DNA of 64,000 bases from Candidatus Terraquivivens tengchongensis (GCA_023261845.1 JALNJZ010000004.1:69693-133692); one strand, 5' to 3'; shown: positions 5,357-62,977, counted from the stretch's first letter. A program made the numbers and translations. Notes: generated by a model from the letters alone, not told the origin.

Positions 5357-5399
5357 AACATTCCAAAAGCTTTTTATATTTTAACGCTAAAGTATAAGC

Positions 5400-32366: not shown

Positions 32367-32371
32367 CTTCT

Positions 32372-34078: not shown

Positions 34079-34606
34079 ATGGGTAGGACTAGGGCTGTTT
34101 TGAGGAGGCAGGTTCCGCTCTGGCTATTAATACTCCTCGTCCTCTTGGTTGGGGCTGGAGCTGCTGTAGCCATAACAGCATATACGCTGACATATTATGC
34201 TAAGGCTGCTACAGTAATAGTCTCCGATGACGCCCTCATCCATATTGACGGTTTCCCTGAGTATGGGATCTACATAGCAGAGACAAGCAAGTCCGCCAAT
34301 ACGAATGGTGAACTGAGCTATCCGTATAGTAAAGTTAATAATGATATAACCGCCGGACACTATGTAATATCATTTACGATTAGAGAGAATGAGAACTTAG
34401 AAGCATATGCTGGCAGCCGCTGGAAGGTATACGTCTACTTCGGCGTCACTAAGCTGGGCGAGTTCACCATAACACAAAACACAGCAGAAAGAGACATCAT
34501 TGAGGGGGTTGAGGTCCACGTTGACCTCGGGCTCGGACCTGGACAGGAAGGTCAGCTGCCAGATATCAGTAATCCGGTGCGCATAATAGCCATAAGGCAA
34601 TCATAG
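34079..34606 (+). CDS. membrane-anchored/secreted hypothetical protein
   Basis: N-terminal TM/signal LWLLILLVLLVGAGAAVAITA. 175 aa. Confidence 0.4.
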   Translation: MGRTRAVLRRQVPLWLLILLVLLVGAGAAVAITAYTLTYYAKAATVIVSDDALIHIDGFPEYGIYIAETSKSANTNGELSYPYSKVNNDITAGHYVISFTIRENENLEAYAGSRWKVYVYFGVTKLGEFTITQNTAERDIIEGVEVHVDLGLGPGQEGQLPDISNPVRIIAIRQS

Positions 34607-34685
34607 CAGCTCACAACTATAACGCAAAACAAACCTTTTTTATATTTACTTTGCATAATACCACCATAAACTATTGGGATCTCTC

Positions 34686-35590: not shown

Positions 35591-35918
35591 TCTCTCGAAA
35601 ACGTTCGAAATAACTGTGTTCTCTCAGCATATGTTCGAGAACGTTAGTGTTTTATCATATACCCCGTTTCAACCTGAGACCAATCCTCTTCGAAATCTGA
35701 TTTGTTTTTCAATTCCCTTGTTGGTATCAGTGCGGCCTTTTTCCGGTTTCTACACCTTCATGAGCCGCTTTTGTAAACTACTCTTGCGGCGGCAGGGGTT
35801 AATCATGATATGTATATAAACTTATTCTGCGTCTCGGTAATACTGAATTTGTTCGGCCGAAGCATATGAAAGCCGAACGCAGAAAACATAATACCAGACA
35901 TAGGCTTTTACATCCTTT

Positions 35919-37445
35919 GTGAATGCTCAGAAGACCAGCCTTCTTATCATGGCACCTATAGGGGACCTCTCAGGCTGGAGGCTAGCAAACTACTATATTC
36001 AAGGCAAACGCTACTCGACGTGCTGCTCTGCCATAGCTCTGGCCCTACACAACTCCCAGCGTTATAACCACATACATCTGCAGATTTATGTGCTCGACTC
36101 TCTAACATGCTCACCTTTGCTTGGGAAGTGGTCCGAGGATCAACCTTTACAGAGGCAAGTCATTAAGCAAGTTTTGGAGAAATCGTTTAAAGAGGAGGTG
36201 CTTAAGGTTGCCCAGAGATCAGGTATTGGGGCGCAAGTAGGGCATAACGGTGCTGTTTACATAAGAAGCCAGTGCACCCTGACAATATCGGTCCACATAT
36301 CCCAAGCTGCTGGTGAATATGCTGTTAACAGGGAAGGAGCCCCAGTAGCATCAGCCGTATTTAACGGAGACCCCACATCAATATTCACAAAGATCATCTC
36401 CTCAGTCATAACACTTCCTGAATACGGCGACATACTGTTAGACCTCACACATGGTATCAACTACATGCAGTCGATGGCGGTCTATGCAGTTGAGATACTT
36501 AAAAATCTTATACCCGTCAACGTCAGGGTGCACAACGCCTCACCTTATCCGTCTGGAGTCTACCAAACAACCTTCTGCTTTCCCACAACCGTAAAGCAAG
36601 TAAAACAAAACATAATGAGAAATCAGCCCGATTTAATGATACTCGACCTATCAGGCCTGCAGCACCTTTGGGATCTTTCGGCAAGCTTCTCCAATCTAAC
36701 CCTTACTAGAAAAGATGTGGAGACTATTCGTAAAGCCCTCAATCACGTCATCTCTCAACTTAAGCTATGTAGCACAAGCTATAATGTTTTACAGGCTCGC
36801 CACACGGTACTGGCTTGGTATTACTTAGCGGCTGGGGTGATCACGATAGGTTACATCAATGCGGTAAAGTCTTTCAAAGAGACGGTTGATCTGGACAACA
36901 TCCAGCAACTTGCAAATAAAATAGAAGAGGCTGAAATCGGCTTCGATGTTGAGGGGGATAACGATCGCATCATATTCAAATACAGGGCTCGTACTGATTG
37001 GAGGTTTGCTGTTCCGTTCATTGTGTGGTACATGCGCCAGAGGCTAGCCCAAGTCATTAGCAGAAAGGATATTAAGGAAACGGATAAGATAACTGTCAAT
37101 GGAAATGAGCTGATAACACTGCTCGACGGACTCTCTAATGTAAATCCTCTCTACATGGCCGTCGGGAATGCTCTGAGATATGAGAGGGACAGGATACTCC
37201 AGAAGAGCCGAGACCTTAAGATGTATGAGTTCTCCATGGAAAGATCTGAATATAGGAAGCTGTTTTTCGGTACAGATAGTCCTCTCAGCCAGCTAAAGTT
37301 AAGTGAAATGAAAAGACACCTACAGGCACACGTGGGTATAACATACGAACCAGTCACCCATATAAAAATAACCGATAATGAGGTTCAGTTAACGCTGAGG
37401 GTTGGGGACCTTGGAGAGGGTCCCTACAACGTATGGCCTAAGTGA
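35919..37445 (+). CDS. csx1: Csx1-family CRISPR-associated CARF-HEPN protein (DxTHG motif)
   Basis: N-terminal CARF-like GDLSGWRLANYYIQG. DLTHGINYM is a DxTHG motif. C-terminal HEPN Rx4H (KRHLQAHVG). 508 aa. Confidence 0.55.
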   Translation: MNAQKTSLLIMAPIGDLSGWRLANYYIQGKRYSTCCSAIALALHNSQRYNHIHLQIYVLDSLTCSPLLGKWSEDQPLQRQVIKQVLEKSFKEEVLKVAQRSGIGAQVGHNGAVYIRSQCTLTISVHISQAAGEYAVNREGAPVASAVFNGDPTSIFTKIISSVITLPEYGDILLDLTHGINYMQSMAVYAVEILKNLIPVNVRVHNASPYPSGVYQTTFCFPTTVKQVKQNIMRNQPDLMILDLSGLQHLWDLSASFSNLTLTRKDVETIRKALNHVISQLKLCSTSYNVLQARHTVLAWYYLAAGVITIGYINAVKSFKETVDLDNIQQLANKIEEAEIGFDVEGDNDRIIFKYRARTDWRFAVPFIVWYMRQRLAQVISRKDIKETDKITVNGNELITLLDGLSNVNPLYMAVGNALRYERDRILQKSRDLKMYEFSMERSEYRKLFFGTDSPLSQLKLSEMKRHLQAHVGITYEPVTHIKITDNEVQLTLRVGDLGEGPYNVWPK

Positions 37446-51234: not shown

Positions 51235-52434
51235 TTAGGTTATGCTTCGCTGAGGGGCTCTCATGATTTTTATACTCGTAAGTAAGCCGATGATTGCCAC
51301 AGATTCTGTCGCTATAGCAAACAGCACCATAAGAATCACGAGGCCGTGTTGATATAGGTATCCGTAAACCATCGAGCCAACCATCCATGCCATTCCGAAG
51401 AAAGCTCCGAACATACCGTATCCGTATGCTCTGCCTTCTATGGGCACTATGTCTGCTATTGCTGCACGCGCAGTGCTCTCGTAGATTCCCATTGCTGCTC
51501 CCCAAAACACGCTGGACAATAGAACCAAACGAAGATCACCCATAACGAGTGTTGGAACGACTAAAGCCGATAGCACGGGCGCCACTACGAGCGAGGCTAA
51601 GCCGACCCTATCGTAAATCATTCCCATAGGAAAAGCGAGAAATCCGTCGACGAGCATGGCTACAAGATACATCATAGCTATCACGTAATCTGCAAAGCCT
51701 TCAGCCCTAAGGTAATATGAGACGTTGACCCAAGGCATGAAGCCTAAGGCGATCAAAGACATAGAGGCTGTATACAACCAGAATGCCTTACCAAGTACAA
51801 CTCTGCTCTTTAGTATTGGAACAGAAGCTTCTGCCGATCTCACCTTAGGGTATTTGCTGTATGCAGTGAGGAGGAGCGCTATGGATATGGCTGCGGGTAA
51901 TGCTAACAGTGAAAACGTCACGAAGTAAGAGTTGCTAGTCACATACAACGTCACTGAAACCATCAAAGGGCCCATGACCGCCCCTGCCTGGTCCAGTGCT
52001 TCGTGGAGACCGAAGGCTTTGCCCTTACCCGCCTTTTCCGTTACCTCGGCTATTATGACGTCCCTTACTGGAGTCCTCAAGCCCTTGCCTATCCTCTCTA
52101 GGAATATGAGAAATATCGCTAACTGCCAATACCCGGATAGCGCCAGAAGCGGGCAAGCAATCAAGTTCAGTGCATATCCAGCGAAGACCAATGACCAGTA
52201 AACCTTGCTAGACCTCCAATGGCCTGCTAGCGTGCCGCTAAGCAACCTCGCAACATAACCTAAAAACTCGCCTATACTCGCTAGGCTGGCGAAGAACGCC
52301 GTCGCACCTAAGAGCCCTACGTAAGAGCCAAAAACCGACCTGGCACCCTCATACGTCATATCTGCGAACAGCGAAACTAATGAGAGTAGAATGAAGACCG
52401 TGAAAAGCTCCTTGCCTAGGACGCGGAAACCCAT
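51235..52434 (-). CDS. MFS transporter
   Basis: 12 predicted TM helices and an MFS-like loop motif. 399 aa. Confidence 0.75.
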   Translation of the reverse strand: MGFRVLGKELFTVFILLSLVSLFADMTYEGARSVFGSYVGLLGATAFFASLASIGEFLGYVARLLSGTLAGHWRSSKVYWSLVFAGYALNLIACPLLALSGYWQLAIFLIFLERIGKGLRTPVRDVIIAEVTEKAGKGKAFGLHEALDQAGAVMGPLMVSVTLYVTSNSYFVTFSLLALPAAISIALLLTAYSKYPKVRSAEASVPILKSRVVLGKAFWLYTASMSLIALGFMPWVNVSYYLRAEGFADYVIAMMYLVAMLVDGFLAFPMGMIYDRVGLASLVVAPVLSALVVPTLVMGDLRLVLLSSVFWGAAMGIYESTARAAIADIVPIEGRAYGYGMFGAFFGMAWMVGSMVYGYLYQHGLVILMVLFAIATESVAIIGLLTSIKIMRAPQRSIT

Positions 52435-52560: not shown

Positions 52561-54372
52561 CTAAATCGCACATGTTTCAGGCATGGGTATTGCTTCTAGG
52601 AATTCCTTTTGGAATTCTGGCTCGGCAGCTAGCTCCACGTATTCTATCTTCTTAGCGACGTTACATGCAACATCTCTCAGGGTCTTTGAAAGAAGCATAG
52701 CTCTCGCACCGGCACCAGCAGCATTACCAACAATCCTTATCTTGCTCAAGTCTATGTTAGGATACAACCCTATAATTTTTGCCGAGATTGGATTAAGAAA
52801 GAAACCAAACGTACCGGCAACGTAAAGCCTCTCAGCTTCTGATACATCTACCTGAAGCTTCTTCATCAAAATGTTCATGCCAGTCCTGATCGCTGCCTTT
52901 GCCAGCTGTATTTCTCTTATGTCCTTCTGCGTCAACACTATGTCCTCGCCTATGGCCGTGTTCTCTTTGTATTCTACGACGAATTCTGGATAATTCCTAT
53001 CATTCATCCTTATGCGTCTTGTGCCTACATTCGTGTTCAACCTTCCCGACTTATCCATCAGACCTGTCGTAAATAAACCAGCAACTAAGTCGACAACCGC
53101 AGAACCTGTCATGCCTCTTGGCTTTACGTTACCTATAACACTATAGCTCACCTCACCATTAGCCATAACCTCTATCCCGTATATCGCACCGATGGTGGCC
53201 CGCATTCCGTAGGTTATGTGGGCGCCCTCAAACGCAGGGCCAGATGCGGTTGAGCAAGCGACAAATTTTCCATCCTTCTTGACGACTATCTCAGTATTCG
53301 TTCCTACATCAACTAAGATTGCAGCATCCGCATCTTCTTGCATGTTGGTTGCTATGATGTCGGCTACAACGTCCGAGCCCATATATCCCGCGATTAGCGG
53401 CGGCATAAAGAGTCTAGCTTCAGCATTCGCACGTATACCTACACTTTTTGCCATAACACATAATGGTTCTCTTGTCGTGGGTGTGTACGGGAAATATGCT
53501 AACCTTTTCGGCTCAAGACATAAAAGGAAATGATGCATGACTGTATTACCTACAGCCACTACCTCATAAACGTCTTCAACGTCACTTCCAGTTGTATCAC
53601 ATGCCGTGTTTATGAGTTTATTTATACAGCTGATTATTTTTTCTTGCAACGCTTTAACACCTTCCTTTAAGGCATAGTCGAGCCTAGATACGACGTCCTC
53701 ACCATAAGCTATCTGTGGGTTGATATCGGAAACTGTTGACAAAGTCTTACCACTCATTAGGTCGACTAGGTAACCAACAACTTTGGTTGTACCCACGTCT
53801 ACTGCGAAGCCAAGAGGTCTGCAGTTCTCTCGTACATCGATTATCTCATCGTTGTAAGTTATAAGCGAGAGTTTTTTCTCAATACCTACATCGGCTATAC
53901 GGGAAAGCTTCTGTAACGCATGAAGATTAAATCGTTTTGGTACACTTAACGATGATACAACTTCATCCAATGCACCCCATACTTTAGCAGGTAGTGTGAC
54001 GTTAACTTTCTGGACTACAGAATCAAACCGCTCCTCAAACACTTCGCCTTCAACTGATACGACATATTCGCCCAACCTACTCTCGCCCGGCACGAATACC
54101 GATATCGCATTCTCTCTAACTATCTTGCATCTGCAAGAAAGTCTATAACCTTCGTTCAGCTTCTTTGAGCTGAGCACTATTTTTTCATCACTAGTTAAAT
54201 CAGATATACTATCTGAGCCGACGATTATTTTGACCATACACTTTCCACATAACGCCTTTCCATTGCAAGGTCCAATGATGTCAATTCCTGCCCTGCGAGC
54301 AACTTCAAGCAAAGATTCGCCGATTTTTGCCTCAACCCTTTTCCCTTCTGGCATGAAGCTGACGATAACCAT
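52561..54372 (-). CDS. reductive activase of corrinoid proteins (RACo/COG3894: N-terminal [2Fe-2S] ferredoxin plus ASKHA ATPase)
   Basis: N-terminus GPCNGKALCGKC...YRLSCRC (plant-type ferredoxin cysteines) fused to an actin-fold ATPase region. 603 aa. Confidence 0.65.
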   Translation of the reverse strand: MVIVSFMPEGKRVEAKIGESLLEVARRAGIDIIGPCNGKALCGKCMVKIIVGSDSISDLTSDEKIVLSSKKLNEGYRLSCRCKIVRENAISVFVPGESRLGEYVVSVEGEVFEERFDSVVQKVNVTLPAKVWGALDEVVSSLSVPKRFNLHALQKLSRIADVGIEKKLSLITYNDEIIDVRENCRPLGFAVDVGTTKVVGYLVDLMSGKTLSTVSDINPQIAYGEDVVSRLDYALKEGVKALQEKIISCINKLINTACDTTGSDVEDVYEVVAVGNTVMHHFLLCLEPKRLAYFPYTPTTREPLCVMAKSVGIRANAEARLFMPPLIAGYMGSDVVADIIATNMQEDADAAILVDVGTNTEIVVKKDGKFVACSTASGPAFEGAHITYGMRATIGAIYGIEVMANGEVSYSVIGNVKPRGMTGSAVVDLVAGLFTTGLMDKSGRLNTNVGTRRIRMNDRNYPEFVVEYKENTAIGEDIVLTQKDIREIQLAKAAIRTGMNILMKKLQVDVSEAERLYVAGTFGFFLNPISAKIIGLYPNIDLSKIRIVGNAAGAGARAMLLSKTLRDVACNVAKKIEYVELAAEPEFQKEFLEAIPMPETCAI

Positions 54373-54512
54373 TCTTTCCTTGTTCCCCCAGATTCAGCTC
54401 ACATCCCCGTTAAAAGCATATATCCTTTAAAAGTCAAACTGCTATACCGATACAATATTTACACATACATGTAAAGCTATAAATAAATAGCAGATAAAAG
54501 TTTCGCGAGTAC

Positions 54513-55214
54513 GTGACGCAAGCAGAAGATGTTATAGTTAGCAAGCAACTAGCCAGACTTAAAGAGGCAATACTGAACGGTGATGCAAACACCGCAAGAG
54601 AGGCAGCTACTATCTTAAAAGAGAAAGGTCTCTTGCCCCTCGACATAGTTAATCGAGCCATTAAACCAGCGATGGATGAGATGGGTAAAAGGTATGAGAG
54701 GTTAGAGGCATTTCTTCCTGACCTAGTCTTAGCAGGTGAGGCGGCCCAAGAAGCATTGAAAGTTATACTACCAAAAGAAGGGGAAGAAGCTTTCATCAAG
54801 GGCAAGGTCGTCATCGGAACTATATACGGAGACATACATGATATAGGTAAGAACATCGTGGCAGCGATACTGAGTGCCAACGGTTACAAAATAATAGACC
54901 TAGGTAATGATGTGCCACCTGAAAGGTATATTGAAACGGCAAAGAAAGAGGGCGCGCATATTATAGGCATATCATGTCTCCTGACACCATCAATGTACTA
55001 TATGAGGGATGTTATCAGAAAGTTAGAAGAAGAAAACATTAGGGACAAGTTTTACGTGATCATTGGTGGAGCAGCAGTTTATCCAGATTGGGCTAAGGAA
55101 ATTGGTGCAGATGGATGGGCCAAAGATGCCGAAAGAGCGGTCCAGCTTTGCGATACCCTAATCGAAAGGGGCAAGGAACTTCCTAAACCCGTTATTTTAG
55201 GCGAATGGCGCTAG
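54513..55214 (+). CDS. mtaC: corrinoid (cobalamin-binding) protein, MtaC-like
   Basis: B12-binding DxHxxG motif (GDIHDIGKNIV) with an N-terminal helical cap. 233 aa. Confidence 0.75.
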   Translation: MTQAEDVIVSKQLARLKEAILNGDANTAREAATILKEKGLLPLDIVNRAIKPAMDEMGKRYERLEAFLPDLVLAGEAAQEALKVILPKEGEEAFIKGKVVIGTIYGDIHDIGKNIVAAILSANGYKIIDLGNDVPPERYIETAKKEGAHIIGISCLLTPSMYYMRDVIRKLEEENIRDKFYVIIGGAAVYPDWAKEIGADGWAKDAERAVQLCDTLIERGKELPKPVILGEWR

Positions 55215-55230
55215 TTGGAGGGGCAACTTC

Positions 55231-56613
55231 TTGGATTTACTTTTCAACATTCTAGACAAGACACTCACAGGTCCTCCTATTGAAAAACGTGATTTTGAGT
55301 TTAAGCTAGTTCCAAAGACGACACGAGATGTTCTTAAAGAATACGGCCTCGAAAAGACGTTTGACCCAGAGAACCCAATAAACACTGACCTAAAGCTCGC
55401 TGAACAATTTTACAAAGCTGGATATGAGTTAGCACTAAGGCTCGGCATGTTCTGTCCAGATACGAAAAGGAGAGTAATTTTCACAGAAGAAGAGATTAAG
55501 GAAGCTTTAAGGAACGCTCCAACAGAAGTCACGCTCGGCTATGGCAAAGATAAAGTTACGATAAGGAGTAGGAAACCTGAGGATAGAAATCCTCCAGTCG
55601 CCGAAGGGTCGGCTTTAGGCATGTCGATAAGCGAGGAGTACTTCATACCGCTCTGCATGGCAATAGCACAGTACAAAGTCATAGATATCATTCTTGCACC
55701 TACACTAGATACGATAAATAAACGTGAAATTAGGGCGAGGACACCTTACGAGACAATTATGGGAATGTATGAGGCCAAGTACGTTAAAGAGGCCCTAAGA
55801 CGTATAGGAAGACCTGGAATGCCGCTTCATGGTGTCGAGGGTGCTCCAACAGAGTACGGCTACTTCTCAGGCTTCCTCTGGGGTGGGTTCGAACCTGATA
55901 GAACAATTGGTATAGCGCTCATACCCGAGCCGATAACACTGTCCTATCAGATACTTCATAGAGTTGTCGTTAACCATCTAATAGGCTCACCCCTTGAGGC
56001 GGGACATATGCTAAACATAGGCGGCTACTTTGGTTCACCCGAAGGTGCGGTTGTCGGAGCCGTTGCTGCTCAGATTCTTCAGACTGCATCGATGTTCCCA
56101 ACAGTCGTTGAAAGCACAATACTAGATGCGAGGTATTTCGTAAACACTAACAGAGAGGCTCTTTGGGCTACGAGCACTAGCATGCAGGCGAGAACGCTCG
56201 GCAACAAGGTAATGAACCTTGGCATAACGAGCCAGGTGAGTGGTCCATGTACGGACATGTTACTGTATGAAACGACAACGATAGCTATAGCGGATTCTGT
56301 TTCAGGTGTAGCGATAGAGATCGGCACAAGACCAGCGGCATGTAGGTACAAAGATCACGGAAGCGCGCTCGAAAACAAATTCTTCGCAGAGGTTCTTAAA
56401 TCGTCGGCTAAGAACTTAAAACTTACAGACGCGAACGAGATGGTAAAGGCACTTTTGCCCAAGTATGAGCACAAGCTCAAAGATCCTCCAAAAGGAAAAA
56501 GCTTCCCAGAATGTACGGACCTAAGGACGCTCCAACCTTCGAAAGAGTGGTTGGAGATATACGAAAGAGTTTGGAAGGAACTCGAGGACCTTGGACTTCC
56601 TCGGTGGGAGTAG
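55231..56613 (+). CDS. MttB-superfamily substrate:corrinoid methyltransferase (non-pyrrolysine)
   Basis: IFTEEEIKEALRNAPTEVTL and IGGYFGSPEGAVVGAVAAQIL parallel MtgB/MttB segments (VEEAIASAPSEFVL; SIGGPEAALNCAGAQ). 460 aa. No internal TAG. Confidence 0.45.
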   Translation: MDLLFNILDKTLTGPPIEKRDFEFKLVPKTTRDVLKEYGLEKTFDPENPINTDLKLAEQFYKAGYELALRLGMFCPDTKRRVIFTEEEIKEALRNAPTEVTLGYGKDKVTIRSRKPEDRNPPVAEGSALGMSISEEYFIPLCMAIAQYKVIDIILAPTLDTINKREIRARTPYETIMGMYEAKYVKEALRRIGRPGMPLHGVEGAPTEYGYFSGFLWGGFEPDRTIGIALIPEPITLSYQILHRVVVNHLIGSPLEAGHMLNIGGYFGSPEGAVVGAVAAQILQTASMFPTVVESTILDARYFVNTNREALWATSTSMQARTLGNKVMNLGITSQVSGPCTDMLLYETTTIAIADSVSGVAIEIGTRPAACRYKDHGSALENKFFAEVLKSSAKNLKLTDANEMVKALLPKYEHKLKDPPKGKSFPECTDLRTLQPSKEWLEIYERVWKELEDLGLPRWE

Positions 56614-57973
56614 CTTGCCATTCAGAGAGTTGGCATATGAAAACGCATATGAGCTTGCCTTCGGTTTTGCTAAGAAACCTCTAAGTTATGGGTTAGGGCT
56701 TTCTGTCGGTGATGGTAAAGTTATACCCGAAGTCAAATACTTGCTAAAACCTGGCCTTGAACAGAATCTCAATGCACTTGTGGAAGAATATAAGAAGGTA
56801 ACGCTTTCAATCATGGAAAGAGCAGCAAACTTAGGGGTCACAGACGTTCAGCTAGAGACGGAGTTTGTTGAACCTATGACTATGAACCCTAGCTGGGGGG
56901 CGGCTGTGATAGAGACACAGAAAGAGGTTCTTTCAACCTATTACGAAAGGTATGGAATTAGGTCAGCACTTAGAGCTACAATAGCCGACGTAAGGAGGTT
57001 TAGTAAGGGGCTTCGTAAGGGCGAGTATTTTCAGGCGATCATGGATTCGTTTATAAACGCGGCCGAGAGTGGTGCGGACCTACTATCAATCGAATCGAGA
57101 GGAGGTCAGGAAATTTTTTCATACTCGCTCATAAGAAACGATCTAGCAGGCATGCTGTTCTCTTTTGGTATCCTCGCGCCGAGGGATGTCAGATACATTT
57201 GGAAAGAAATTGTGAAGAATGCAAAGAGGGTCATACCTGCAGGAGATACCGCTTGTGCCCTAGCTAACAGCGCCATGGTCTTAGCAAACGGGTTAGTTAA
57301 CAGGAAGATACCGCATACGCTGGCCGCAGTCATTAGGGCCATGTCGGCGGTCAGAACTCTGGCATGCTACGAAGAAGGTGCAATGGGTCCCGGAAAAGAT
57401 TGCGCATACGAGAATGTAATAATCAAAATAATCACAGGTTATCCGATGAGTATGGAAGGCAAGACTTCGGCCTTTGCCCACTCCAGCCTAGTAGGTAACA
57501 TAGTTGCCGCAGCATGCGACCTTTGGTCCAACGAGACGATAGTCGTTGAGGATACATTTGGTGGCAAGACACCTGCTATAATATTTGAGATGTTAAGTTA
57601 CGACACGGCTTTAATGAACGAGTCGATAAGGTCAAGAAATAACAAGATTCTTCAACAATTGTTCATTAACTCAGACAAGTACAGAGACCCGCAAGCTTTA
57701 ATCTTGTCACCCGATAACGCGTTCAGAATAGCGTCCGCCATTGTTTCAGCAAATTCGGATTACGAAAGAACAATTTCCGCCGCACTTGAGGCAATCCGTA
57801 TAATAGAGGATAATCTGAGTATATTGAATATGCCAGAAATAGAGAAGCGATACCTTGCGACACTGAAAAACTTTTTTGAAGCAGTTCCTGATGAGCATAA
57901 ATTAATTGAAGAATCTATTAAAAAGTATAGCGGAAAGGTTCCTGAATTTAATGCAACCAATTACGAGCTTTGA
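56591..57973 (+). CDS. mtaB: methanol:corrinoid methyltransferase MtaB
   Basis: NPSWGAA, GADLLSIESRGG, AGDTACALANSAM, GPGKDCAYENVIIKIITGYPMSMEGKTS, CDLWSNE and DKYRDPQA all match MtaB motifs. 460 aa. TTG start. Confidence 0.75.
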   Translation: MDFLGGSSLPFRELAYENAYELAFGFAKKPLSYGLGLSVGDGKVIPEVKYLLKPGLEQNLNALVEEYKKVTLSIMERAANLGVTDVQLETEFVEPMTMNPSWGAAVIETQKEVLSTYYERYGIRSALRATIADVRRFSKGLRKGEYFQAIMDSFINAAESGADLLSIESRGGQEIFSYSLIRNDLAGMLFSFGILAPRDVRYIWKEIVKNAKRVIPAGDTACALANSAMVLANGLVNRKIPHTLAAVIRAMSAVRTLACYEEGAMGPGKDCAYENVIIKIITGYPMSMEGKTSAFAHSSLVGNIVAAACDLWSNETIVVEDTFGGKTPAIIFEMLSYDTALMNESIRSRNNKILQQLFINSDKYRDPQALILSPDNAFRIASAIVSANSDYERTISAALEAIRIIEDNLSILNMPEIEKRYLATLKNFFEAVPDEHKLIEESIKKYSGKVPEFNATNYEL

Positions 57974-57976
57974 AAC

Positions 57977-58918
57977 TTACCTTAATTTTTTGAATGGTTT
58001 TGCCAAAGAGGCTGGGCCTTTTACCTTTCTACCAGCGACGAATAAAAGGACTATCGTGAATAGATAAGGTAGCATCAGAGCAAACTGATAAGGTAAAAAC
58101 GGTATGTTAAATGCTTGAATCCTCAGTTGAAGAGCATCGATAAAGCTGAAAAGGAAAGCTCCGCCAAGCAGTAGCAACGGATTCCATCTAGAGAGTATTA
58201 TTAACGCTATAGCTATGTAACCTCTACCTTGCGTCATGTTATCTAAAAACATATTGTAGTAACCTATCGAGAGTAGTGATCCAGCAATACCAGCGATGCA
58301 ACCTTCTAGAATAAGCAGGGCATAACGCGTCAGGTTTACGTTGATTCCGAGGTAGTCGGCTGTTTGCGGGTCCTCACCTATAGCTCTGATCTTCAAACCT
58401 TTTTCGGTTTTGAAAAGCAGCCACCAAGTTAAGAACACTAACACGAAAGCCGCGTAAGTATGTGGGAGATGGCTAAACAGAATCTTGCCGATTACCAGTA
58501 TCTGAGAGAGCACAGGTATCTCGATAGGTTGGAGCGTTGTTTGAATATGTGGAGGTATAGGACTGACGTACCAACCGAAGCTAGCCCTGTATAAGTAAGA
58601 AGTTATGCCTATTGTTAGTAGGTTGAGTGCCAAGCCGGTGACCATTTGGTCTAGCGCCAGAGTTATCGTCAATATGGCAAATAGAAGGCACAGGACTGCT
58701 CCAGCGATGCTCGCAAGCAACGTGGCATAGTATAGATCTCCTGTATAAAAAGCGACCATAAACGCCACGAACGCGCCCATCAACATAGTACCTTCAAGGC
58801 TAAGGTTCAGGATTCCGCTGCGTTCGACAAGTAGCTCTGCTAGCCCAGCCAGCAGAAGTGGTGTGAGCAGAGTTATGCTGGAGTAGAGTAAACCTAAAAT
58901 AACTTCGGCCGTTATCAT
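57977..58918 (-). CDS. ABC transporter permease
   Basis: Polytopic membrane protein. 4-bp overlap with the upstream permease gene. Confidence 0.7.
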   Translation of the reverse strand: MITAEVILGLLYSSITLLTPLLLAGLAELLVERSGILNLSLEGTMLMGAFVAFMVAFYTGDLYYATLLASIAGAVLCLLFAILTITLALDQMVTGLALNLLTIGITSYLYRASFGWYVSPIPPHIQTTLQPIEIPVLSQILVIGKILFSHLPHTYAAFVLVFLTWWLLFKTEKGLKIRAIGEDPQTADYLGINVNLTRYALLILEGCIAGIAGSLLSIGYYNMFLDNMTQGRGYIAIALIILSRWNPLLLLGGAFLFSFIDALQLRIQAFNIPFLPYQFALMLPYLFTIVLLFVAGRKVKGPASLAKPFKKLR

Positions 58919-59883
58919 AACTTCAACCTCTCCATTACCTTTTTGGACAGCTTATCTTCAACGAAGTAACCTGTCAAGATGAATATTATTATAAGGGCCT
59001 GAATTATGCCCGCCATGCCCACAGGTATCTGGGCCATCCTATGCATTGTCATGCTTCCGTTTATTATCCCACCTAAGAAAAAGGAGGTTAGGGCTATTAG
59101 CAACGGATTCAGATAACCGAGTAGGGCTACGGCTATTCCAGTGTAACCATAAGGCGAAGTTGTTGGAGAGAGCTCGAGCCTCATCTTGTGCTGTATTCCT
59201 AAAACCTCAAAACCTCCAGCTAGACCCGCTAAGAAGCCACTTATGAGCATGGCTTGGATTATTAGATGCGTGGTGTTTATGTTCGCGTACTCTGCAACCC
59301 TTGGACTCGAACCAAGTATATCCAGCTTGAGTCCGAACGCGCTCCTTTTCAGGAAGAAATAGGCTAGTGGAACGACAATGACAAAAGCCAATAAAACACC
59401 TACATGAATCCGAGTACCTTGTACAGCTATGGGCGCCCATAGCGCAGGGTTTATCGTTTCCGTCTCAGGAAACATCGAGACTGGGTCTCTGAACGGGCCG
59501 TGTAGAAGATAGCTGACTAGATATATGGCTACGTAGTTGAACATCAAAGTGGTGATTACCTCGTTTATACCATACGATGCCTTCAGGATAGCCGGTATGA
59601 GTGCCCAAATCGCTCCACCTAAACCTGCAATCAAAACAATGACCGGAAACGCTAAGGGCGCCGGAAGATCCTTAAACATTATGCCCATGATTGCCGTCAT
59701 CATGCCGCCAATGTAAAACTGTCCTTCCGCACCTATGTTCCATACCTTCGCCCTAAAAACCACCGCAAGCCCTATACTTATTAATAATAATGGTGTCGCC
59801 CTTACGAACGTCTCCGAGATTGCTGAAGGTGAAAAGGCGCCTTGAAAGAGCCAGTAATAAGCCTGTAGCGGGTCTTTACCCAT
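58915..59883 (-). CDS. ABC transporter permease
   Basis: Polytopic membrane protein. 322 aa. Confidence 0.7.
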   Translation of the reverse strand: MGKDPLQAYYWLFQGAFSPSAISETFVRATPLLLISIGLAVVFRAKVWNIGAEGQFYIGGMMTAIMGIMFKDLPAPLAFPVIVLIAGLGGAIWALIPAILKASYGINEVITTLMFNYVAIYLVSYLLHGPFRDPVSMFPETETINPALWAPIAVQGTRIHVGVLLAFVIVVPLAYFFLKRSAFGLKLDILGSSPRVAEYANINTTHLIIQAMLISGFLAGLAGGFEVLGIQHKMRLELSPTTSPYGYTGIAVALLGYLNPLLIALTSFFLGGIINGSMTMHRMAQIPVGMAGIIQALIIIFILTGYFVEDKLSKKVMERLKL

Positions 59884-59947
59884 GAAGAAGATTAAGACAG
59901 CACCAATAAAGAAAGCAAGACTAATGGTTAGTATGGCTAGTGCCGCT

Positions 59948-61570
59948 CTAATTAGCAGAAGTCGCTGCTCTAGCGTTATAGCCGGCTCCCTCCGCGGCCA
60001 GCATATAGGAGCCTATCAAAACGGGATCTGCCTCTTCTCTTTCAAAAATCCTCGTAAACTTACCATCGCTGATTACGGCTATCCTATCGCTAAGTTCCAG
60101 AATCTCGTTAAGGTCTGATGAGATGAGGAGTATTCCAACACCTTTCGATGCAAGTTCTGACAACGCCCTCCTTACGTAATAAGCCGATTTGGCATCTAAA
60201 CCTGCTGTCGGCTGTTCTGCTATCAGAATTTCCGATGATGTGATAATTTCACGGCCGACTATTATTTTTTGGATATTTCCGCCCGAAAGGTATTTCACTG
60301 GTGTCTTAAGGCTTGGTGTCTTCACATTCATGAAAGATACAACCTTTTTCGCGAACTCATTTATTCTACCAAAGTTTAGAGTATTGCCACGTTTTTTAAA
60401 TTCTTCCTTATCAAAGGATCTAAGGACACTATTTATCGCTACGCTAAGTGTTGGAGCTACGCCGAGCTCTACCCTTTCGGCAGGTATGTAGTTTAACCCA
60501 TCCAAGTTGTCATTTTTCCCTCTAAAAGTTATAATGCCTGAGGCTGGTTTTCTAAGGCCTACTATGGCCTCAACGAGTTCCTTTTGACCATTACCCTCGA
60601 CACCAGCTATTCCTAGAATCTCACCCATGTATAGTTCAAAGGATATGTCTTTTACTTTTGTCAGACCTTCATCATCGTTCACCACTAAATTTTTTACAAC
60701 CAACAAAGGCTCTTTATTGAATGAGGGTGCAACCTTTGTAGTTGTAGGCATAAGCCTTTCACCGACCATTAGCTCAACAAGACGTGATTCATCATCTATT
60801 TCGTCTGTTCTGAGGGTAGTTATGACACGACCCATCCTCATAACCGTTATCCTATCGCTGATGCGCATAGCTTCACGAATTTTATGCGTAATTAGAACTA
60901 TGCTGTATCCGTTAGATGAGAGGGACTTGAGCAACTGTAGAAACCTGTCAATTTCAGGACCGCAGAGCATTGACGTGGGTTCATCAAATATTAAGATTCT
61001 TGCCCTGCTCAGTAAGAGCCTAAGTATTTCTATTCTTTGTCTTTCACCTACTGATAGAGCATAGAGTGGTGAATCTAATTTTACTTTAAACCCGAGAATC
61101 TTCGAAAGCTCCTCAATCTCCGTTAGTGTATGCTTCATATTAAATTTTTGACCAATAAGTCCAAGTCTCAGGTTCTCTAATACAGTCATCGTTGGTATGA
61201 GTGTGAAGTGTTGATGGACCATACCTATGCCTTGCTTTAAGGCATCTAATGGTGAGTTGAATTTAACTTCTCTTCCTTCGACATATATAGAGCCACTAGT
61301 CGGCTTAAGACAGCCGCTCAATATTTTCATAAGCGTTGTCTTACCAGCTCCGTTCTCGCCCAACAAAGCATGAACCTCACCCTTTCTTAGATCAAAATCG
61401 ACCTCATAATTCGCCACTATACCTCCAGGGTAAACCTTCGTTATCTTTCTTAATTCGACTACGAGCATAAACCTCGCACCTACAAAAAAAGTTTGTGTGT
61501 TGTTACAGGCTAATTCACTTCCATCTTTCTGGGACCCAGTCTTCGTATATCGGGACAACAAACTTCCCAT
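59948..61570 (-). CDS. ABC transporter ATP-binding protein with duplicated ATPase domains
   Basis: Two Walker A motifs (GENGAGKTT; GVEGNGQKEL), signature LSGGNIQK/LSVGERQR. The likely true start is internal (about 61468), which avoids overlap with the binding-protein gene. Confidence 0.75.
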   Translation of the reverse strand: MGSLLSRYTKTGSQKDGSELACNNTQTFFVGARFMLVVELRKITKVYPGGIVANYEVDFDLRKGEVHALLGENGAGKTTLMKILSGCLKPTSGSIYVEGREVKFNSPLDALKQGIGMVHQHFTLIPTMTVLENLRLGLIGQKFNMKHTLTEIEELSKILGFKVKLDSPLYALSVGERQRIEILRLLLSRARILIFDEPTSMLCGPEIDRFLQLLKSLSSNGYSIVLITHKIREAMRISDRITVMRMGRVITTLRTDEIDDESRLVELMVGERLMPTTTKVAPSFNKEPLLVVKNLVVNDDEGLTKVKDISFELYMGEILGIAGVEGNGQKELVEAIVGLRKPASGIITFRGKNDNLDGLNYIPAERVELGVAPTLSVAINSVLRSFDKEEFKKRGNTLNFGRINEFAKKVVSFMNVKTPSLKTPVKYLSGGNIQKIIVGREIITSSEILIAEQPTAGLDAKSAYYVRRALSELASKGVGILLISSDLNEILELSDRIAVISDGKFTRIFEREEADPVLIGSYMLAAEGAGYNARAATSAN

Positions 61571-62639
61571 CTATTATTTGTTTTTCAAGATCTTCGACTA
61601 GTTTCAGCACATCTGGCGGAACTTTTGTCTTAAGCTCAGGGTTCCATACCAGCTTAGCCCACCCCTCTTTCATGCCCCAATTGTATATTCCACCTTCCCA
61701 TTTGCCCGCCCGCTTCATCTCTATAAGGTGCTTCACGAACGTTTTCAGATCCCACGTTACACTGGCTAAGACGACATCTGGTGCCAATCCAGATTGATCA
61801 ACGATGTTTCCGAAGCAATAGACGGTCTTACCCTCTTTCAGAGCTTCTCTGGCCGCTTCAAATGGACCGTATCTTTCAGCATATATGAAATCAGCACCAG
61901 CTTCGATTAATGCTTTTGCCGCTTCCTTTCCCTTTACAGGGTCAAACCAGCTTTCGATAAATACCGCCCTGATATTAACCCCTGGGTTTACTGATTTTGC
62001 ACCTGCTGCAAAAGCGTTGACCAGCCTATTGACGTCGGGTACGGCATACGCAGTAACTACTCCTATGACGTTTGTCTTTGTCATCTTACCAGCAGTCACA
62101 CCAGCCAAATACGCCGCATCCTGAATCCAATAGTCGTAAAGCACAACGTTGGGTGGATACTCTAAGCCTGTTGGACCCGAGCCTTGTGCAAAAGCTACAT
62201 TAGGAAATTCTTTCGCTATCTTTATGGTTACCTCATGGTATCCCCAGCTATGTGGAATTATTATATCATAACCTGCCGCTATGTATTCTCTGATAACCCT
62301 TTCAACGTCTGCTGTATCAACCTTCTCTGAATATACATACTCCACGTCTAAATTATTCACGGCCCACGTCATGGCTTCATGCATAACAGTATTCCATGGT
62401 TCTTCGATAGGCGTCACATAAATGACCGCAACCTTAATCTTCTTCACAGGGGTGGGCTGAGGCGCTACTCCTATGGACGAAAACGCATACCAGGCTACGA
62501 TACCTACGACTATTATAAGAGCCACGATCAATACCACAGCCATCTTTGATATGCCTCTCTTTACGTTGTCATGGATGGCACACATTTTTATCATGTATCC
62601 AGTAAAATTTTCCGAATATTTATCTATATTTTTACGCAT
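61515..62639 (-). CDS. BMP-family (PnrA-like) ABC substrate-binding lipoprotein
   Basis: TM/signal MAVVLIVALIIVVGIVAW, then a BMP-family periplasmic binding fold. The likely start is the internal Met near 62540. Confidence 0.65.
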   Translation of the reverse strand: MRKNIDKYSENFTGYMIKMCAIHDNVKRGISKMAVVLIVALIIVVGIVAWYAFSSIGVAPQPTPVKKIKVAVIYVTPIEEPWNTVMHEAMTWAVNNLDVEYVYSEKVDTADVERVIREYIAAGYDIIIPHSWGYHEVTIKIAKEFPNVAFAQGSGPTGLEYPPNVVLYDYWIQDAAYLAGVTAGKMTKTNVIGVVTAYAVPDVNRLVNAFAAGAKSVNPGVNIRAVFIESWFDPVKGKEAAKALIEAGADFIYAERYGPFEAAREALKEGKTVYCFGNIVDQSGLAPDVVLASVTWDLKTFVKHLIEMKRAGKWEGGIYNWGMKEGWAKLVWNPELKTKVPPDVLKLVEDLEKQIIDGKFVVPIYEDWVPERWK

Positions 62640-62856: not shown

Positions 62857-62977
62857 CCCGCGGTAGCTCAGCCTGGTAGAGCTTCCGGCTGTAGGGTCTG
62901 CCTTTGGCAGACCTCCCCAGCCTACCGGGCGCACAGAAACCGGAGTGTCGCAGGTTCAAATCCTGCCCGCGGGACCA
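62857..62977 (+). tRNA. tRNA-Tyr (anticodon GUA) with a 44-nt intron (62895..62938) and encoded CCA
   Basis: Hand-folded: C1-G72 acceptor CCCGCGG/CCGCGGG, D-arm GCTC/GAGC, anticodon stem TCCGG/CCGGA with loop CTGTAG|intron|A, T-arm GCAGG-TTCAAAT-CCTGC, then ACCA. Confidence 0.8.

What the first reader, a model, noticed from the sequence alone, without database searches (positions are those of the whole stretch)
52561..57973. Corrinoid methyltransferase operon combining MtaB with an MttB-superfamily methyltransferase, one corrinoid protein and a RACo activase, but no methyl-acceptor or MCR genes nearby
MtaB is confidently recognisable and MtaC-like has the DxHxxG motif. The gene between them resembles non-Pyl MttB-family enzymes (the MtgB-like quaternary-amine:corrinoid methyltransferases) and has no amber codon. 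The divergent RACo would keep the Co(I) state. The context is AOR, FprA, a glycyl radical enzyme and a fumarate-reductase-like module, with no methanogenesis marker in 64 kb. This suggests non-methanogenic anaerobic methylotrophy, with methanol and a methylated amine feeding one corrinoid pool and the acceptor pathway (MtaA/MtrH-like) encoded elsewhere. The substrate of the MttB-like enzyme is unknown.
Basis: partly seen in the sequence, partly recalled or inferred. Interest (0 to 1): 0.65.

Follow-up and report, generated by a model that had tools for sequence, protein, structure and literature searches.

The report
Pyrrolysine-free MtmB plus MtaB methyl-transfer operon

Summary
The four genes are real. 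They are RACo (52561-54372, minus strand), a His-on corrinoid protein (54513-55214), a 460-aa TIM-barrel methyltransferase (55231-56613) and MtaB (56615-57973).

The middle gene is misassigned. It belongs to the MtmB family (PF05369, 280 bits) and gives no MttB hit. It has no in-frame amber codon, and His200 sits where M. barkeri MtmB has pyrrolysine.

The window comes from a Ca. Terraquivivens MAG (Caldarchaeales). About 71 kb of annotated sequence holds no MCR, MtaA/URO-D or MtrH gene.

Two features were missed:
- A convergent Bmp-family ABC importer (57977-62639) is part of the conserved unit. Its binding protein most resembles the purine-base binders AtzT and 3S99.
- In other phyla, CoP-MtmB-like pairs sit among such importers, purine-type deaminases, XdhA-like enzymes and MtaA-like MT2 genes.

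Best reading: two substrate methyltransferases load one corrinoid protein. One uses methanol. The other uses an imported N-methylated purine-like compound; this is inferred, not shown. The acceptor step is encoded elsewhere. The only characterised non-Pyl MtmB (MtqB, 2026) uses tetramethylammonium and choline.

Verdict: a new variant of a known kind, of moderate to high interest.

The parts
52561..54372 (-). RACo-type reductive activase of corrinoid enzymes (603 aa: N-terminal 2Fe-2S ferredoxin domain, RACo middle domain, ASKHA ATPase domain). It is transcribed divergently from the methyltransferase operon.
   Evidence: Pfam Fer2 (41 bits), Raco_middle (185 bits) and RACo_C_ter (273 bits). NCBIfam AcsV-like, 408 bits, below the 800 cutoff. 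It holds the same position in L008-L010, L012-L015 and L051.
54373..54512 (.). A 140-bp A/T-rich divergent intergenic region between RACo and the corrinoid-protein gene. It contains TATA-like stretches (TTTAAAAG, CTATAAATAAATA).
   Evidence: Read directly from the sequence. No function was tested. The bacterial-type promoter scan is not applicable and showed no enrichment.
54513..55214 (+). Corrinoid (cobamide-binding) protein, 233 aa, with His-on motif GDIHDIG and downstream SxL and GG elements. It is the methyl carrier.
   Evidence: Pfam B12-binding_2 (57 bits) plus B12-binding (94.5 bits). It scores higher against MtgC/pyl_corrinoid/MtbC models (185-160 bits) than against MtaC models (130-120 bits), all below the equivalog cutoffs. 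A CoP gene lies directly upstream of the MtmB-like gene in 24 of 39 genome loci.
55231..56613 (+). Full-length pyrrolysine-free MtmB-family methyltransferase (460 aa, no internal stop). His200 lies at the column of Pyl202 of M. barkeri MtmB. It is the presumed substrate:corrinoid methyltransferase (MT1) for an unknown N-methyl compound.
   Evidence: PF05369, 280 bits, profile 3-450 of 450, with no PF06253 hit. PDB 1L2Q/1NTH, E 4e-55, residues 5-456 against 10-456; the 'X' (Pyl) aligns with His200 in GMPLHGVEG. His is present in about 40 of the closest homologs and the column is hypervariable elsewhere.
56615..57973 (+). MtaB, methanol:corrinoid methyltransferase homolog (452 aa from TTG 56615; an alternative TTG lies at 56591). 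Its start is separated from the TAG stop of the upstream gene by one base.
   Evidence: PF12176, 553 bits. NCBIfam MtaB_Meth, 540.7 bits, below the 720 cutoff. PDB 2I2X, E 4e-128. E164/C220/C269 are invariant in 119 of 119 aligned MtaBs including this one. The start site follows the gene callers and the sequence.
57977..59883 (-). Two BPD_transp_2 permease genes (57977-58918 and 58915-59883) of a Bmp-family ABC importer, convergent on MtaB.
   Evidence: Precomputed Pfam PF02653 for both. They are syntenic in L008-L012, L015, L050 and L051.
59948..61468 (-). Double ABC_tran ATPase of the same importer. Gene callers give 506 aa; the longest ORF reaches 61570.
   Evidence: PF00005 twice; ORF list.
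61515..62639 (-). Bmp-family (PF02608) substrate-binding protein of the importer. It is probably the component that selects the compound delivered to the MtmB-like enzyme.
   Evidence: PF02608. The best solved relatives are AtzT 6PI5 (E 8e-49; guanine, adenine and 2-hydroxyatrazine binder, PMC6834077) and 3S99 (E 6e-41; adenine modelled in the site). The stacking Trp pair and the Ser97 equivalent are conserved, while Asn218/Asn220 are replaced. It is 67-73% identical to the binding proteins beside MtmB-like modules in L047, L050 and L052.
51235..52434 (-). MFS_1 transporter downstream of and co-directional with RACo. Any association with the module is doubtful.
   Evidence: PF07690. It is not present at this position in L008-L015, so it is not a conserved part.

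Best explanation
The locus is a cobamide-dependent methyl-harvesting module of a hot-spring archaeon, Ca. Terraquivivens (Caldarchaeales), which has no methanogenesis genes in the roughly 71 kb I could annotate.

Shown by sequence:
- One His-on corrinoid protein is co-transcribed with two substrate-specific TIM-barrel methyltransferases: an MtaB with an intact zinc site, and a full-length MtmB-family enzyme that has histidine instead of pyrrolysine.
- A divergent RACo gene is present. Enzymes of this family return oxidised Co(II) to the active Co(I) state using ATP and a reduced ferredoxin domain.
- A convergent Bmp-family ABC importer belongs to the conserved unit.

Inferred:
- MtaB methylates the shared carrier with methanol.
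- The MtmB-like enzyme methylates it with a compound brought in by the Bmp importer. That compound is most likely an N-methylated purine-like heterocycle, rather than monomethylamine or a betaine. Cationic N-methylpurines such as 1-methyladenine or 7-methylguanine would be chemically apt, because the leaving group is neutral.
- Methyl-Co(III) is then passed to an acceptor by a second methyltransferase that is not in the window. In relatives this is an MtaA/CmuA-like URO-D protein encoded directly after the MtmB-like gene. From my own knowledge, archaeal MetE (methylcobalamin:homocysteine methyltransferase) is another candidate.
For: Gene identities.

Organism and absence of methanogenesis or MT2 genes in about 71 kb.

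Conserved unit:
- The order RACo | CoP-MtmBl-MtaB | Bmp ABC recurs in L008-L010, L012, L015 and L051; L011 has the same order without an adjacent RACo.

Transporter link across lineages:
- Bmp importers flank CoP-MtmBl pairs in Hadarchaeota, Ca. Hecatella and Bathyarchaeia MAGs and in unassigned contigs L047, L048, L050, L052 and L053; the Chloroflexi locus L049 shows only one such permease gene.
- The window's binding protein is 67-73% identical to those in L047, L050 and L052.

Purine character:
- The binding protein's best solved relatives bind guanine or adenine, and the aromatic sandwich is conserved.
- Recurrent neighbours are Amidohydro_1 proteins (20 in 13 loci) resembling MTA/SAH, 8-oxoguanine and guanine deaminases, an adenine-deaminase family, and XdhA-like Mo enzymes. 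PRTase, OTCase and a DHO_dh/Fer4 protein appear in single loci.

MT2:
- URO-D genes scoring as the MtaA/CmuA family lie directly downstream of MtmBl in L016 and L050, and nearby in 8 of 39 loci.

Phylogeny and paralogs:
- The His200 clade is nested inside the clade with these contexts.
- The Pyl column is hypervariable, and one Hadarchaeota MAG has more than 15 paralogs. This argues for many substrates rather than a single simple amine.
Against: - The substrate assignment rests on gene neighbourhood only.
- The window itself has no deaminase or xanthine-dehydrogenase gene next to the operon.
- The only biochemically characterised non-Pyl MtmB (MtqB) uses tetramethylammonium and choline (PMC13044021).
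- Bmp-family binders also carry riboflavin and nucleosides, so the importer could serve cofactor salvage.
- The carrier protein resembles methylamine-type rather than MtaC-type corrinoid proteins, so whether MtaB uses it is untested.
- No MT2, acceptor pathway or expression data are available.
- I could not scan the rest of the genome.
- The tree is a quick neighbour-joining tree.
Confidence: 0.5

Rival explanations
1. Quaternary-amine reading, the repaired version of the first reader's idea. The pyrrolysine-free MtmB homolog works like MtqB and demethylates a quaternary amine such as choline or tetramethylammonium. Methanol and that amine feed one corrinoid pool for non-methanogenic methylotrophy.
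For: MtqB, the only characterised non-Pyl MtmB, uses tetramethylammonium and choline. The gene is non-Pyl and paired with a methylamine-type corrinoid protein.
Against: - The conserved importer is Bmp-type, with purine-base-binding relatives; no betaine, choline or carnitine transporter gene was seen in the neighbourhoods examined.
- Neighbours in relatives are purine-type deaminases and XdhA-like enzymes.
- Identity to M. barkeri MtmB is about one third, and the relation to the MtqB clade was not tested.
Confidence: 0.17
2. Released-methylamine reading. Amidohydrolases hydrolyse N-methylamino groups from methylated purines or pyrimidines and release methylamine inside the cell. The MtmB-like enzyme then demethylates that methylamine without pyrrolysine.
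For: Adenine-deaminase-family and TRZ/ATZ-type amidohydrolases co-occur with MtmB-like genes. From my own knowledge, an N6-methyladenine deaminase exists in the adenine-deaminase group. MtqB shows a small monomethylamine activity.
Against: - There is no amidohydrolase next to the operon in the window or its closest relatives.
- Pyrrolysine is regarded as necessary for methylamine activation in MtmB.
- More than 15 paralogs with a hypervariable pocket column in one genome fit many substrates better than one.
Confidence: 0.1
3. Hydrolytic demethylase reading. The MtmB-like enzyme takes the methyl group from the imported compound, and MtaB runs in reverse, releasing it as methanol. No MT2 or C1 carrier is then needed, and the demethylated base is salvaged.
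For: - MtaB occupies the slot directly after MtmBl that URO-D holds in L016 and L050.
- No URO-D lies within 10 kb in the eight genome loci, L051 and the window that carry the MtmBl-MtaB pair.
- The pair is tightly coupled, with one base between the genes.
- The MtaB reaction is near equilibrium and would favour hydrolysis at micromolar methanol. This is from my own recollection of Sauer and Thauer 1997 and was not verified here.
Against: - In L050, MtaB and a URO-D MT2 co-occur in one locus.
- The MtaB clade keeps all zinc ligands and differs from other MtaBs at only two conserved positions, so nothing marks a changed function.
- No precedent is known to me.
Confidence: 0.08
4. Cofactor-salvage reading of the importer. 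The Bmp ABC system imports a cobamide lower-ligand base or another vitamin for the corrinoid enzymes, and the MtmB-like substrate enters by another route.
For: The only NCBIfam hit of the binding protein is a weak match to a putative B6 transporter model (122 bits against a cutoff of 400). A Bmp-family riboflavin binder is among the PDB hits (4IIL). From my own knowledge, purines serve as lower ligands of some cobamides.
Against: Several loci hold two or more such importers together with several deaminases and XdhA-like enzymes. That looks catabolic rather than cofactor-related.
Confidence: 0.07
5. Ordinary methylotrophic methanogen locus, with mcr and mtaA elsewhere in the genome.
For: MtaB, a corrinoid protein and RACo are typical of methyl-reducing methanogens. 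Two MAGs with the same cluster are labelled Methanomethylicia (L011, L036).
Against: - The closest species-level genomes are Ca. Terraquivivens tikiterensis (95%) and Ca. T. yellowstonensis (90%).
- The family's description reports fermentative, partly facultatively anaerobic lifestyles, with cytochrome bd and cytochrome c oxidase genes in many MAGs, and never mentions methyl transfer.
- A cytochrome bd subunit gene lies just upstream of the window.
- There is no MCR, Mtr or MtaA in about 71 kb.
Confidence: 0.03

Closest known systems
MtqB/MtqC of Methanococcoides methylutens Q3c (tetramethylammonium/choline:corrinoid methyltransferase; PMC13044021, 2026)
   Same: A full-length MtmB-family enzyme without pyrrolysine, encoded next to a methylamine-type corrinoid protein. 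It is the only member of the non-Pyl MtmB group with a demonstrated function.
   Different: - MtqB works in a methanogen, with MtqA/MtbA passing the methyl group to coenzyme M.
- This gene lies in a Caldarchaeales genome with no MT2 or MCR nearby, is coupled to MtaB and sits beside a purine-type Bmp importer.
MtmB1 of Methanosarcina barkeri (PDB 1L2Q/1NTH), the pyrrolysine-dependent monomethylamine methyltransferase
   Same: Same fold family, aligned end to end (5-456 against 10-456, E 4e-55), with an adjacent corrinoid protein.
   Different: The UAG-encoded Pyl202 is replaced by His200, and there is no in-frame amber codon. Monomethylamine is therefore unlikely to be the main substrate.
MtaBC of Methanosarcina barkeri (PDB 2I2X) and the MtaABC systems of non-methanogens such as Desulfotomaculum kuznetsovii (PMC5770442)
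   Same: MtaB matches at E 4e-128 and keeps residues E164, C220 and C269, recalled as the zinc ligands. A RACo-type activase accompanies it.
   Different: - There is no dedicated MtaC and no MtaA in the locus.
- MtaB shares an operon and apparently a carrier with an MtmB-like enzyme.
- The MtaB belongs to a separate clade, 45-53% identical to all other MtaBs listed.
Brockarchaeota MtaB/MttB methyltransferase systems (PMC8065059)
   Same: A methanol methyltransferase plus an amine-type methyltransferase in a TACK archaeon from hot springs without MCR, with no MtaA identified.
   Different: - The second enzyme here is MtmB-family, not MttB.
- The lineage is Caldarchaeales, although that paper states the methanol system is unique to Brockarchaeota within TACK.
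- A Brockarchaeota MtaB is only 46% identical.
MtgB-type non-Pyl MttB quaternary-amine methyltransferases
   Same: The general logic is shared: a pyrrolysine-free relative of a methylamine methyltransferase with a new substrate.
   Different: It is a different protein family. There is no PF06253 hit at E <= 0.01.

Membership tests
MtmB family (PF05369) | Profile match above the curated threshold over the whole domain | tested here: met
   280.1 bits against a cutoff of 25; profile positions 3-450 of 450.
MtmB family (PF05369) | End-to-end similarity to the solved MtmB TIM barrel | tested here: met
   1L2Q/1TV2, E about 4e-55, query 5-456 against chain 10-456.
Bona fide monomethylamine methyltransferase MtmB | In-frame UAG encoding pyrrolysine at the position of Pyl202 | tested here: not met
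   The ORF is uninterrupted. His200 aligns with the 'X' of 1L2Q. His is found in about 40 of the closest homologs.
Bona fide monomethylamine methyltransferase MtmB | Monomethylamine:corrinoid methyl transfer activity | not testable with these tools
   This needs an enzyme assay.
MttB superfamily (PF06253), including MtgB-like enzymes | Profile match to PF06253 | tested here: not met
   No PF06253 hit at E <= 0.01; MtmB is the only family reported.
MtqB (tetramethylammonium/choline) clade of non-Pyl MtmBs | Placement in the MtqB clade, with its conserved Met/Cys and aromatic pocket residues | not tested
Only the paper's description was read.
MtqB (tetramethylammonium/choline) clade of non-Pyl MtmBs | Methanogen context with an MtqA/MtbA partner | tested here: not met
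   No URO-D family gene in the window plus flanks. The organism is a Ca. Terraquivivens.
MtaB methanol:corrinoid methyltransferase | Pfam PF12176 match and similarity to solved MtaB | tested here: met
   552.8 bits; 2I2X E 4e-128.
MtaB methanol:corrinoid methyltransferase | Zinc ligands Glu164, Cys220 and Cys269 (M. barkeri numbering; ligand identity is from my own knowledge of the 2I2X structure paper) | tested here: met
   All three are conserved in the window protein and in 119 of 119 aligned homologs.
MtaB methanol:corrinoid methyltransferase | NCBIfam equivalog score (MtaB_Meth) | tested here: not met
   540.7 bits against a cutoff of 720. It is a family member but not an equivalog of the methanogen enzyme.
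MtaB methanol:corrinoid methyltransferase | Adjacent MtaC-type corrinoid partner | tested here: inconclusive
   The only corrinoid protein within 10 kb scores higher on MtgC/MtbC-type models (185-160 bits) than on MtaC models (130-120 bits), all below cutoffs.
RACo reductive activase | 2Fe-2S ferredoxin domain plus RACo middle domain plus ASKHA ATPase domain | tested here: met
   PF00111, PF17651 and PF14574.
Complete three-component methyltransferase system (MT1 + CoP + MT2) | A methylcobamide:acceptor methyltransferase (MtaA/URO-D, MtrH or pterin-binding type) in the locus | tested here: not met
   None was found in 64 kb plus flanks. One is present next to the MtmB-like gene in relatives L016 and L050, and near MtmB-like genes in L052/L053. 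The rest of the genome could not be searched.
Methylotrophic methanogen locus | mcrABG or other methanogenesis markers in the genome | tested here: inconclusive
   Absent from about 71 kb. The whole genome could not be scanned. Published descriptions of the family do not mention them.
Bmp/PnrA-type purine or nucleoside ABC importer | PF02608 binding protein with an aromatic sandwich for a planar base | tested here: met
   PF02608. AtzT E 8e-49 and 3S99 E 6e-41. The Trp pair and Ser97 equivalent are conserved, while the two Asn of AtzT are replaced. The ligand itself cannot be tested here.

The most novel reading that the evidence does not exclude
This clade of pyrrolysine-free MtmB homologs, with its paralog swarms in Hadarchaeota, Ca. 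Hecatella and Bathyarchaeia MAGs, may be cobamide-dependent demethylases of N-methylated purine-type bases or nucleosides imported by Bmp ABC systems. That would be a new substrate class for corrinoid methyltransferases, and it would link nucleic-acid necromass turnover to anaerobic C1 metabolism. In Terraquivivens the module is additionally fused with MtaB. It could therefore either pool methanol-derived methyl groups or, more radically, release the purine-derived methyl group as methanol without any C1 carrier.
Probability: 0.3. Interest if true: 0.8.

Novelty: new variant of a known kind. Interest (0 to 1): 0.6.

Why it matters
- Genes of this family are routinely annotated as 'monomethylamine methyltransferase' and read as methylamine use in Bathyarchaeia and other uncultured archaea (for example PMC10321748). 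Without pyrrolysine that reading is probably wrong.
- Only one non-Pyl MtmB has a known function so far.
- The neighbourhood pattern found here (purine-type importers, purine deaminases, XdhA-like enzymes, MtaA-like MT2) gives a concrete, cheap-to-test substrate hypothesis for a family with hundreds of 50%-identity clusters.
- It adds a methanol methyltransferase to Caldarchaeales. This lineage was described as fermentative, and methyl transfer had not been discussed for it in the papers I could read.
- It contradicts the statement that the methanol system is unique to Brockarchaeota within TACK.

Tried and rejected
- MttB assignment: no PF06253 hit, so rejected.
- Read-through of the TAG that ends the MtmB-like gene to make a fusion with MtaB: the genes are in different frames, and the read-through frame stops at TGA after 8 codons. 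Rejected.
- MT2 in the window: an HMM built from neighbouring URO-D proteins found nothing in six-frame ORFs of the window, L001 and L005 at E <= 10.
- MT2 elsewhere in Terraquivivens: a protein search with the L016 URO-D gave no hit attributable to Terraquivivens. This is uninformative rather than negative. Two of its hits led to further MtmB/Bmp loci.
- Published gene inventories: the Wolframiiraptoraceae paper and its 16 supplements hold no mention of methyltransferase, corrinoid, methanol or folate, nor of the KO numbers for mtaA/B, mtmB, mcrA, metH or mtrH. The 2018 Aigarchaeota paper likewise has none.
- 'MtaB has replaced the MT2': weakened, because L050 has both MtaB and URO-D. Kept only as a low-probability rival.
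- MFS transporter 51235-52434 as part of the unit: it is not conserved in relatives.
- Bacterial promoter and terminator scan: 5 promoter-like sites against 9.4 expected. It is not applicable to archaea.
- Tandem-repeat scan for a CRISPR array near the cas genes: none found in the window.
- Literature on a link between MtmB homologs and purines, or on anaerobic corrinoid-dependent caffeine demethylation: nothing relevant to this family.
- Reversibility of the MtaB reaction: not verified in the library. It is cited from memory only.

Full report
**What is there**

The stated interval holds four intact genes.
- The gene at 52561-54372 (minus strand) encodes a 603-aa RACo-type activase, with a 2Fe-2S ferredoxin domain, a RACo middle domain and the ASKHA ATPase domain.
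- A 140-bp A/T-rich spacer separates it from a plus-strand operon.
- The first operon gene is a 233-aa corrinoid protein (54513-55214). It has B12-binding_2 and B12-binding domains and the His-on motif GDIHDIG.
- The second is a 460-aa methyltransferase (55231-56613).
- The third is MtaB. Gene callers start MtaB at TTG 56615, with one base between it and the TAG stop of the preceding gene.

**The correction**

The middle protein is not an MttB-superfamily enzyme.
- Its only Pfam match is MtmB (PF05369, 280 bits, covering profile positions 3-450 of 450). PF06253 is absent at E <= 0.01.
- It aligns end to end with M. barkeri MtmB (1L2Q, E 4e-55). The 'X' that marks pyrrolysine 202 in that chain falls on His200 of the window protein, in GMPLHGVEG.
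- It is therefore a full-length pyrrolysine-free MtmB homolog.

**MtaB**

MtaB is solid.
- It scores 553 bits on PF12176 and E 4e-128 against 2I2X.
- The three residues I recall as the zinc ligands of M. barkeri MtaB (E164, C220, C269) are conserved here and in all 119 aligned homologs.
- It scores below NCBI's equivalog cutoff (540.7 against 720).

**Corrinoid protein**

It scores higher on MtgC/MtbC-type models than on MtaC models.

**Organism and context**

- The window is identical to part of contig JAWBEY010000001.1 of MAG GCA_038838905.1.
- The closest species-level genomes are Ca. Terraquivivens tikiterensis (95% for the MtmB-like protein) and Ca. T. yellowstonensis (90%). These belong to the family Wolframiiraptoraceae, Caldarchaeales.
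- A 118-nt, presumably intron-containing tRNA fits an archaeon.
- Annotation of the window and about 7 kb of flanks shows AOR, FprA, two FAD_binding_2 proteins with ApbE, PEPCK, MCM, type I-A cas genes, glutamine synthetase, and a PFL-like glycyl radical enzyme starting near 63111.
- It shows no MCR, Mtr, MtaA/URO-D or pterin-binding methyltransferase. A URO-D HMM finds nothing at E <= 10.
- The paper describing this family, with its supplements, never mentions methyl transfer. The 2018 Aigarchaeota survey does not either.
- The Brockarchaeota paper states that the methanol methyltransferase system is unique to Brockarchaeota within TACK.

**The conserved unit is larger than reported**

- The order RACo | CoP-MtmBl-MtaB | two permeases, ATPase and Bmp binding protein (convergent) recurs in L008-L010, L012, L015 and L051. 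L011 has the same order without an adjacent RACo.
- L013 and L014 keep RACo-CoP-MtmBl-MtaB, with no importer in the 3-6 kb of downstream sequence available.
- The MtaBs of these loci form their own clade, at least 56% identical to each other and only 45-53% identical to the other MtaBs listed, including Brockarchaeota and Methanolobus.
- At least ten MtaB hits share their longest-contig length with MtmB-like hits. I take this to mean they sit on the same contigs.
- The MFS gene next to RACo is not conserved.

**What the relatives say about the MtmB-like enzyme**

I clustered ORFs from 39 genome loci. The recurrent neighbours were:
- corrinoid proteins (29 in 24 loci);
- Bmp binding proteins (19 in 17 loci) with their permeases;
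- Amidohydro_1 proteins (20 in 13 loci);
- URO-D proteins scoring as the MtaA/CmuA family (13 in 8 loci);
- RACo (10);
- an adenine-deaminase family (5; 470.8 bits against a cutoff of 472.5);
- XdhA-like molybdoenzymes (5; 748 against 780);
- UbiD (5) and AOR (5).

Further look-ups gave the same picture.
- L047 (MtmB-like protein 67% identical) has two Bmp importers, three amidohydrolases, a phosphoribosyltransferase, an OTCase-like gene and AOR.
- L048 and the Chloroflexi locus L049 add a DHO_dh/Fer4 protein and XdhA-like genes; L049 shows only one Bmp-type permease gene.
- Loci found through URO-D similarity alone again hold Bmp importers and AOR or Hdr-like genes, with RACo, CoP and two MtmB genes in L052/L053 and adenine deaminase and OTCase in L054.
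- The amidohydrolases resemble MTA/SAH deaminase, atrazine chlorohydrolase and 8-oxoguanine and guanine deaminases. The other family resembles adenine deaminase 3NQB.

**The importer**

- The window's Bmp protein is most similar to AtzT (6PI5, E 8e-49) and to 3S99 (E 6e-41).
- AtzT co-purified with guanine (KD 0.11 uM) and also binds adenine and 2-hydroxyatrazine. 3S99 has adenine modelled in its site (PMC6834077).
- The two stacking aromatic residues and the Ser97 equivalent are kept in most MtmB-linked Bmp proteins. AtzT's Asn218 and Asn220 are replaced by an acidic residue and Arg or Glu.
- The window protein is 73%, 70% and 67% identical to the binding proteins next to the modules in L047, L052 and L050. 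The same binder therefore travels with the module.

**Phylogeny and paralogs**

- In a quick neighbour-joining tree, the His200/MtaB-linked clade is nested inside the clade with these contexts. Its sisters are L047 (Phe at the Pyl column) and L016.
- The Pyl column is hypervariable among paralogs.
- One Hadarchaeota MAG has more than 15 paralogs.
- The family has 872 representatives of 50%-identity clusters at E <= 1e-3, mostly full length.

**Mechanism**

Shown by sequence:
- one His-on carrier;
- two MT1-type TIM barrels in one operon;
- a RACo, the family of ATP-dependent Co(II) to Co(I) activases;
- a linked importer.

Inferred:
- MtaB loads the carrier from methanol.
- The MtmB-like enzyme loads it from an imported N-methylated purine-like compound. 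Cationic N-methylpurines would be chemically comparable to the quaternary amines used by other Pyl-free enzymes of these superfamilies, because the leaving group is neutral. This is my inference.
- The methyl group leaves through an MT2 encoded elsewhere.

In L016 and L050 a URO-D gene sits directly after the MtmB-like gene. In L050 it coexists with MtaB. This favours a conventional three-component system and weakens the idea that MtaB substitutes for MT2.

**Rivals**

- An MtqB-like quaternary-amine substrate. MtqB is the only characterised non-Pyl MtmB.
- Methylamine released by the neighbouring deaminases.
- A cofactor-salvage role for the importer.
- Reverse operation of MtaB, giving methanol.
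- A methanogen locus.

None is excluded by computation alone. Probabilities are given in the structured fields.

**Known or new**

Pyl-free MtmB homologs are known, and they are usually annotated as methylamine methyltransferases (for example). The first function for one was published in 2026. I found no paper linking the family to purines or to Bmp importers, and none describing this operon in Caldarchaeales. I therefore rate it a new variant of a known kind, with interest 0.6.

**Limits**

- The substrate idea rests on gene neighbourhood only.
- The rest of the genome could not be scanned.
- The tree is approximate.

Noticed in passing
window 62857-62974 (+): A tRNA match 118 nt long against a 71-position model (Rfam 53.9 bits), so it probably contains an intron. 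ARAGORN did not call it. This supports an archaeal origin.
   Followed up: partly
L017, L020-L022, L024-L029, L033, L034, L038, L045, L046 (one Hadarchaeota MAG, SRP323688_co1_140): More than 15 paralogs of the pyrrolysine-free MtmB homolog occur in a single MAG, often in tandem. Each has a different residue at the Pyl-equivalent column. This looks like a substrate-diversified enzyme swarm.
   Followed up: partly
L008 17477-19339, L009 10800-12722, L016 13758-15518, L030 4012-5925, L047 16806-18773, L049 14277-16211, L051 16108-17952, L054 1323-3089: AOR-family (tungsten-type) oxidoreductase genes recur beside the MtmB-like/Bmp modules in several lineages. In L016 the AOR gene follows a small 4Fe-4S protein gene. 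Their role in this context is unexplained.
   Followed up: no
L052 294-4415 and L053 2-3928: An HdrA-like/FlpD (MvhD)/Fer4/CCG (HdrB-like) gene set lies directly upstream of an EamA transporter and the URO-D MT2 gene. This hints that the MT2 acceptor in those genomes is a thiol recycled by a heterodisulfide-reductase-like complex.
   Followed up: no
L050 15781-17153: Two adjacent MtmB-family fragments (280 and 116 aa) lie upstream of the intact CoP-MtmBl-URO-D genes. This is probably a decayed paralog. In the same locus, MtaB is separated from the corrinoid protein by the Bmp importer.
   Followed up: no
L003 11361-12743 (GCA_023268235.1) versus L002 (GCA_038822585.1): MtaB is called as two ORFs (116 and 310 aa) in one assembly and as an intact 452-aa gene in another. 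Both sit on 24,039-bp contigs that carry an identical MtmB-like protein. This is a frameshift or an assembly error.
   Followed up: no
window 56615-57973 (MtaB residues equivalent to M. barkeri P47 and K169): The MtmB-linked MtaB clade (42 sequences) differs from 77 other MtaBs at only two otherwise conserved positions, P47L and K169Q. The second lies five residues after Glu164, recalled as a zinc ligand.
   Followed up: partly
L051 1-5974 and L008 6153-7325: De novo purine biosynthesis genes (ATP-grasp PurT/PurK-like, PurS, PurL, PurQ, PurE, PurM-like) lie immediately upstream of RACo in L051, and a PurM-like gene holds that position in L008. This is another purine-related neighbourhood.
   Followed up: no
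window 922-6917 and about 4.6 kb upstream (L005 2589-5400): Two FAD_binding_2 flavoproteins, ApbE, a protein combining Ni_hydr_CYTB and FMN_bind domains, and a cytochrome bd subunit I gene cluster together. This looks like a flavinylated reductase module next to an oxygen reductase, which fits a facultative anaerobe.
   Followed up: no
window about 31566-37445: Type I-A cas genes (a Cas7/DevR ORF at 32372-33481; Csa5 is seen in the related loci L006/L007), a Csx1 CARF protein (35919-37445) and an IS240-type transposase (34708-35235). Tandem Repeats Finder found no CRISPR array in the window. The related MAG in L007 has a different gene order here.
   Followed up: partly
L011 and L036: Two MAGs labelled 'Candidatus Methanomethylicia archaeon' carry the same CoP-MtmBl genes at 85-87% identity to the Terraquivivens MtmB-like protein; L011 also shows MtaB and the Bmp importer, while L036 is cut within the MtmB-like gene. 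This points to recent transfer, a broad taxonomic label or a binning error.
   Followed up: no
L013 5668-6909: An AlkZ-like DNA glycosylase gene lies about 350 bp from RACo in one relative. It may be coincidental, but it is notable given the alkylated-base hypothesis.
   Followed up: no
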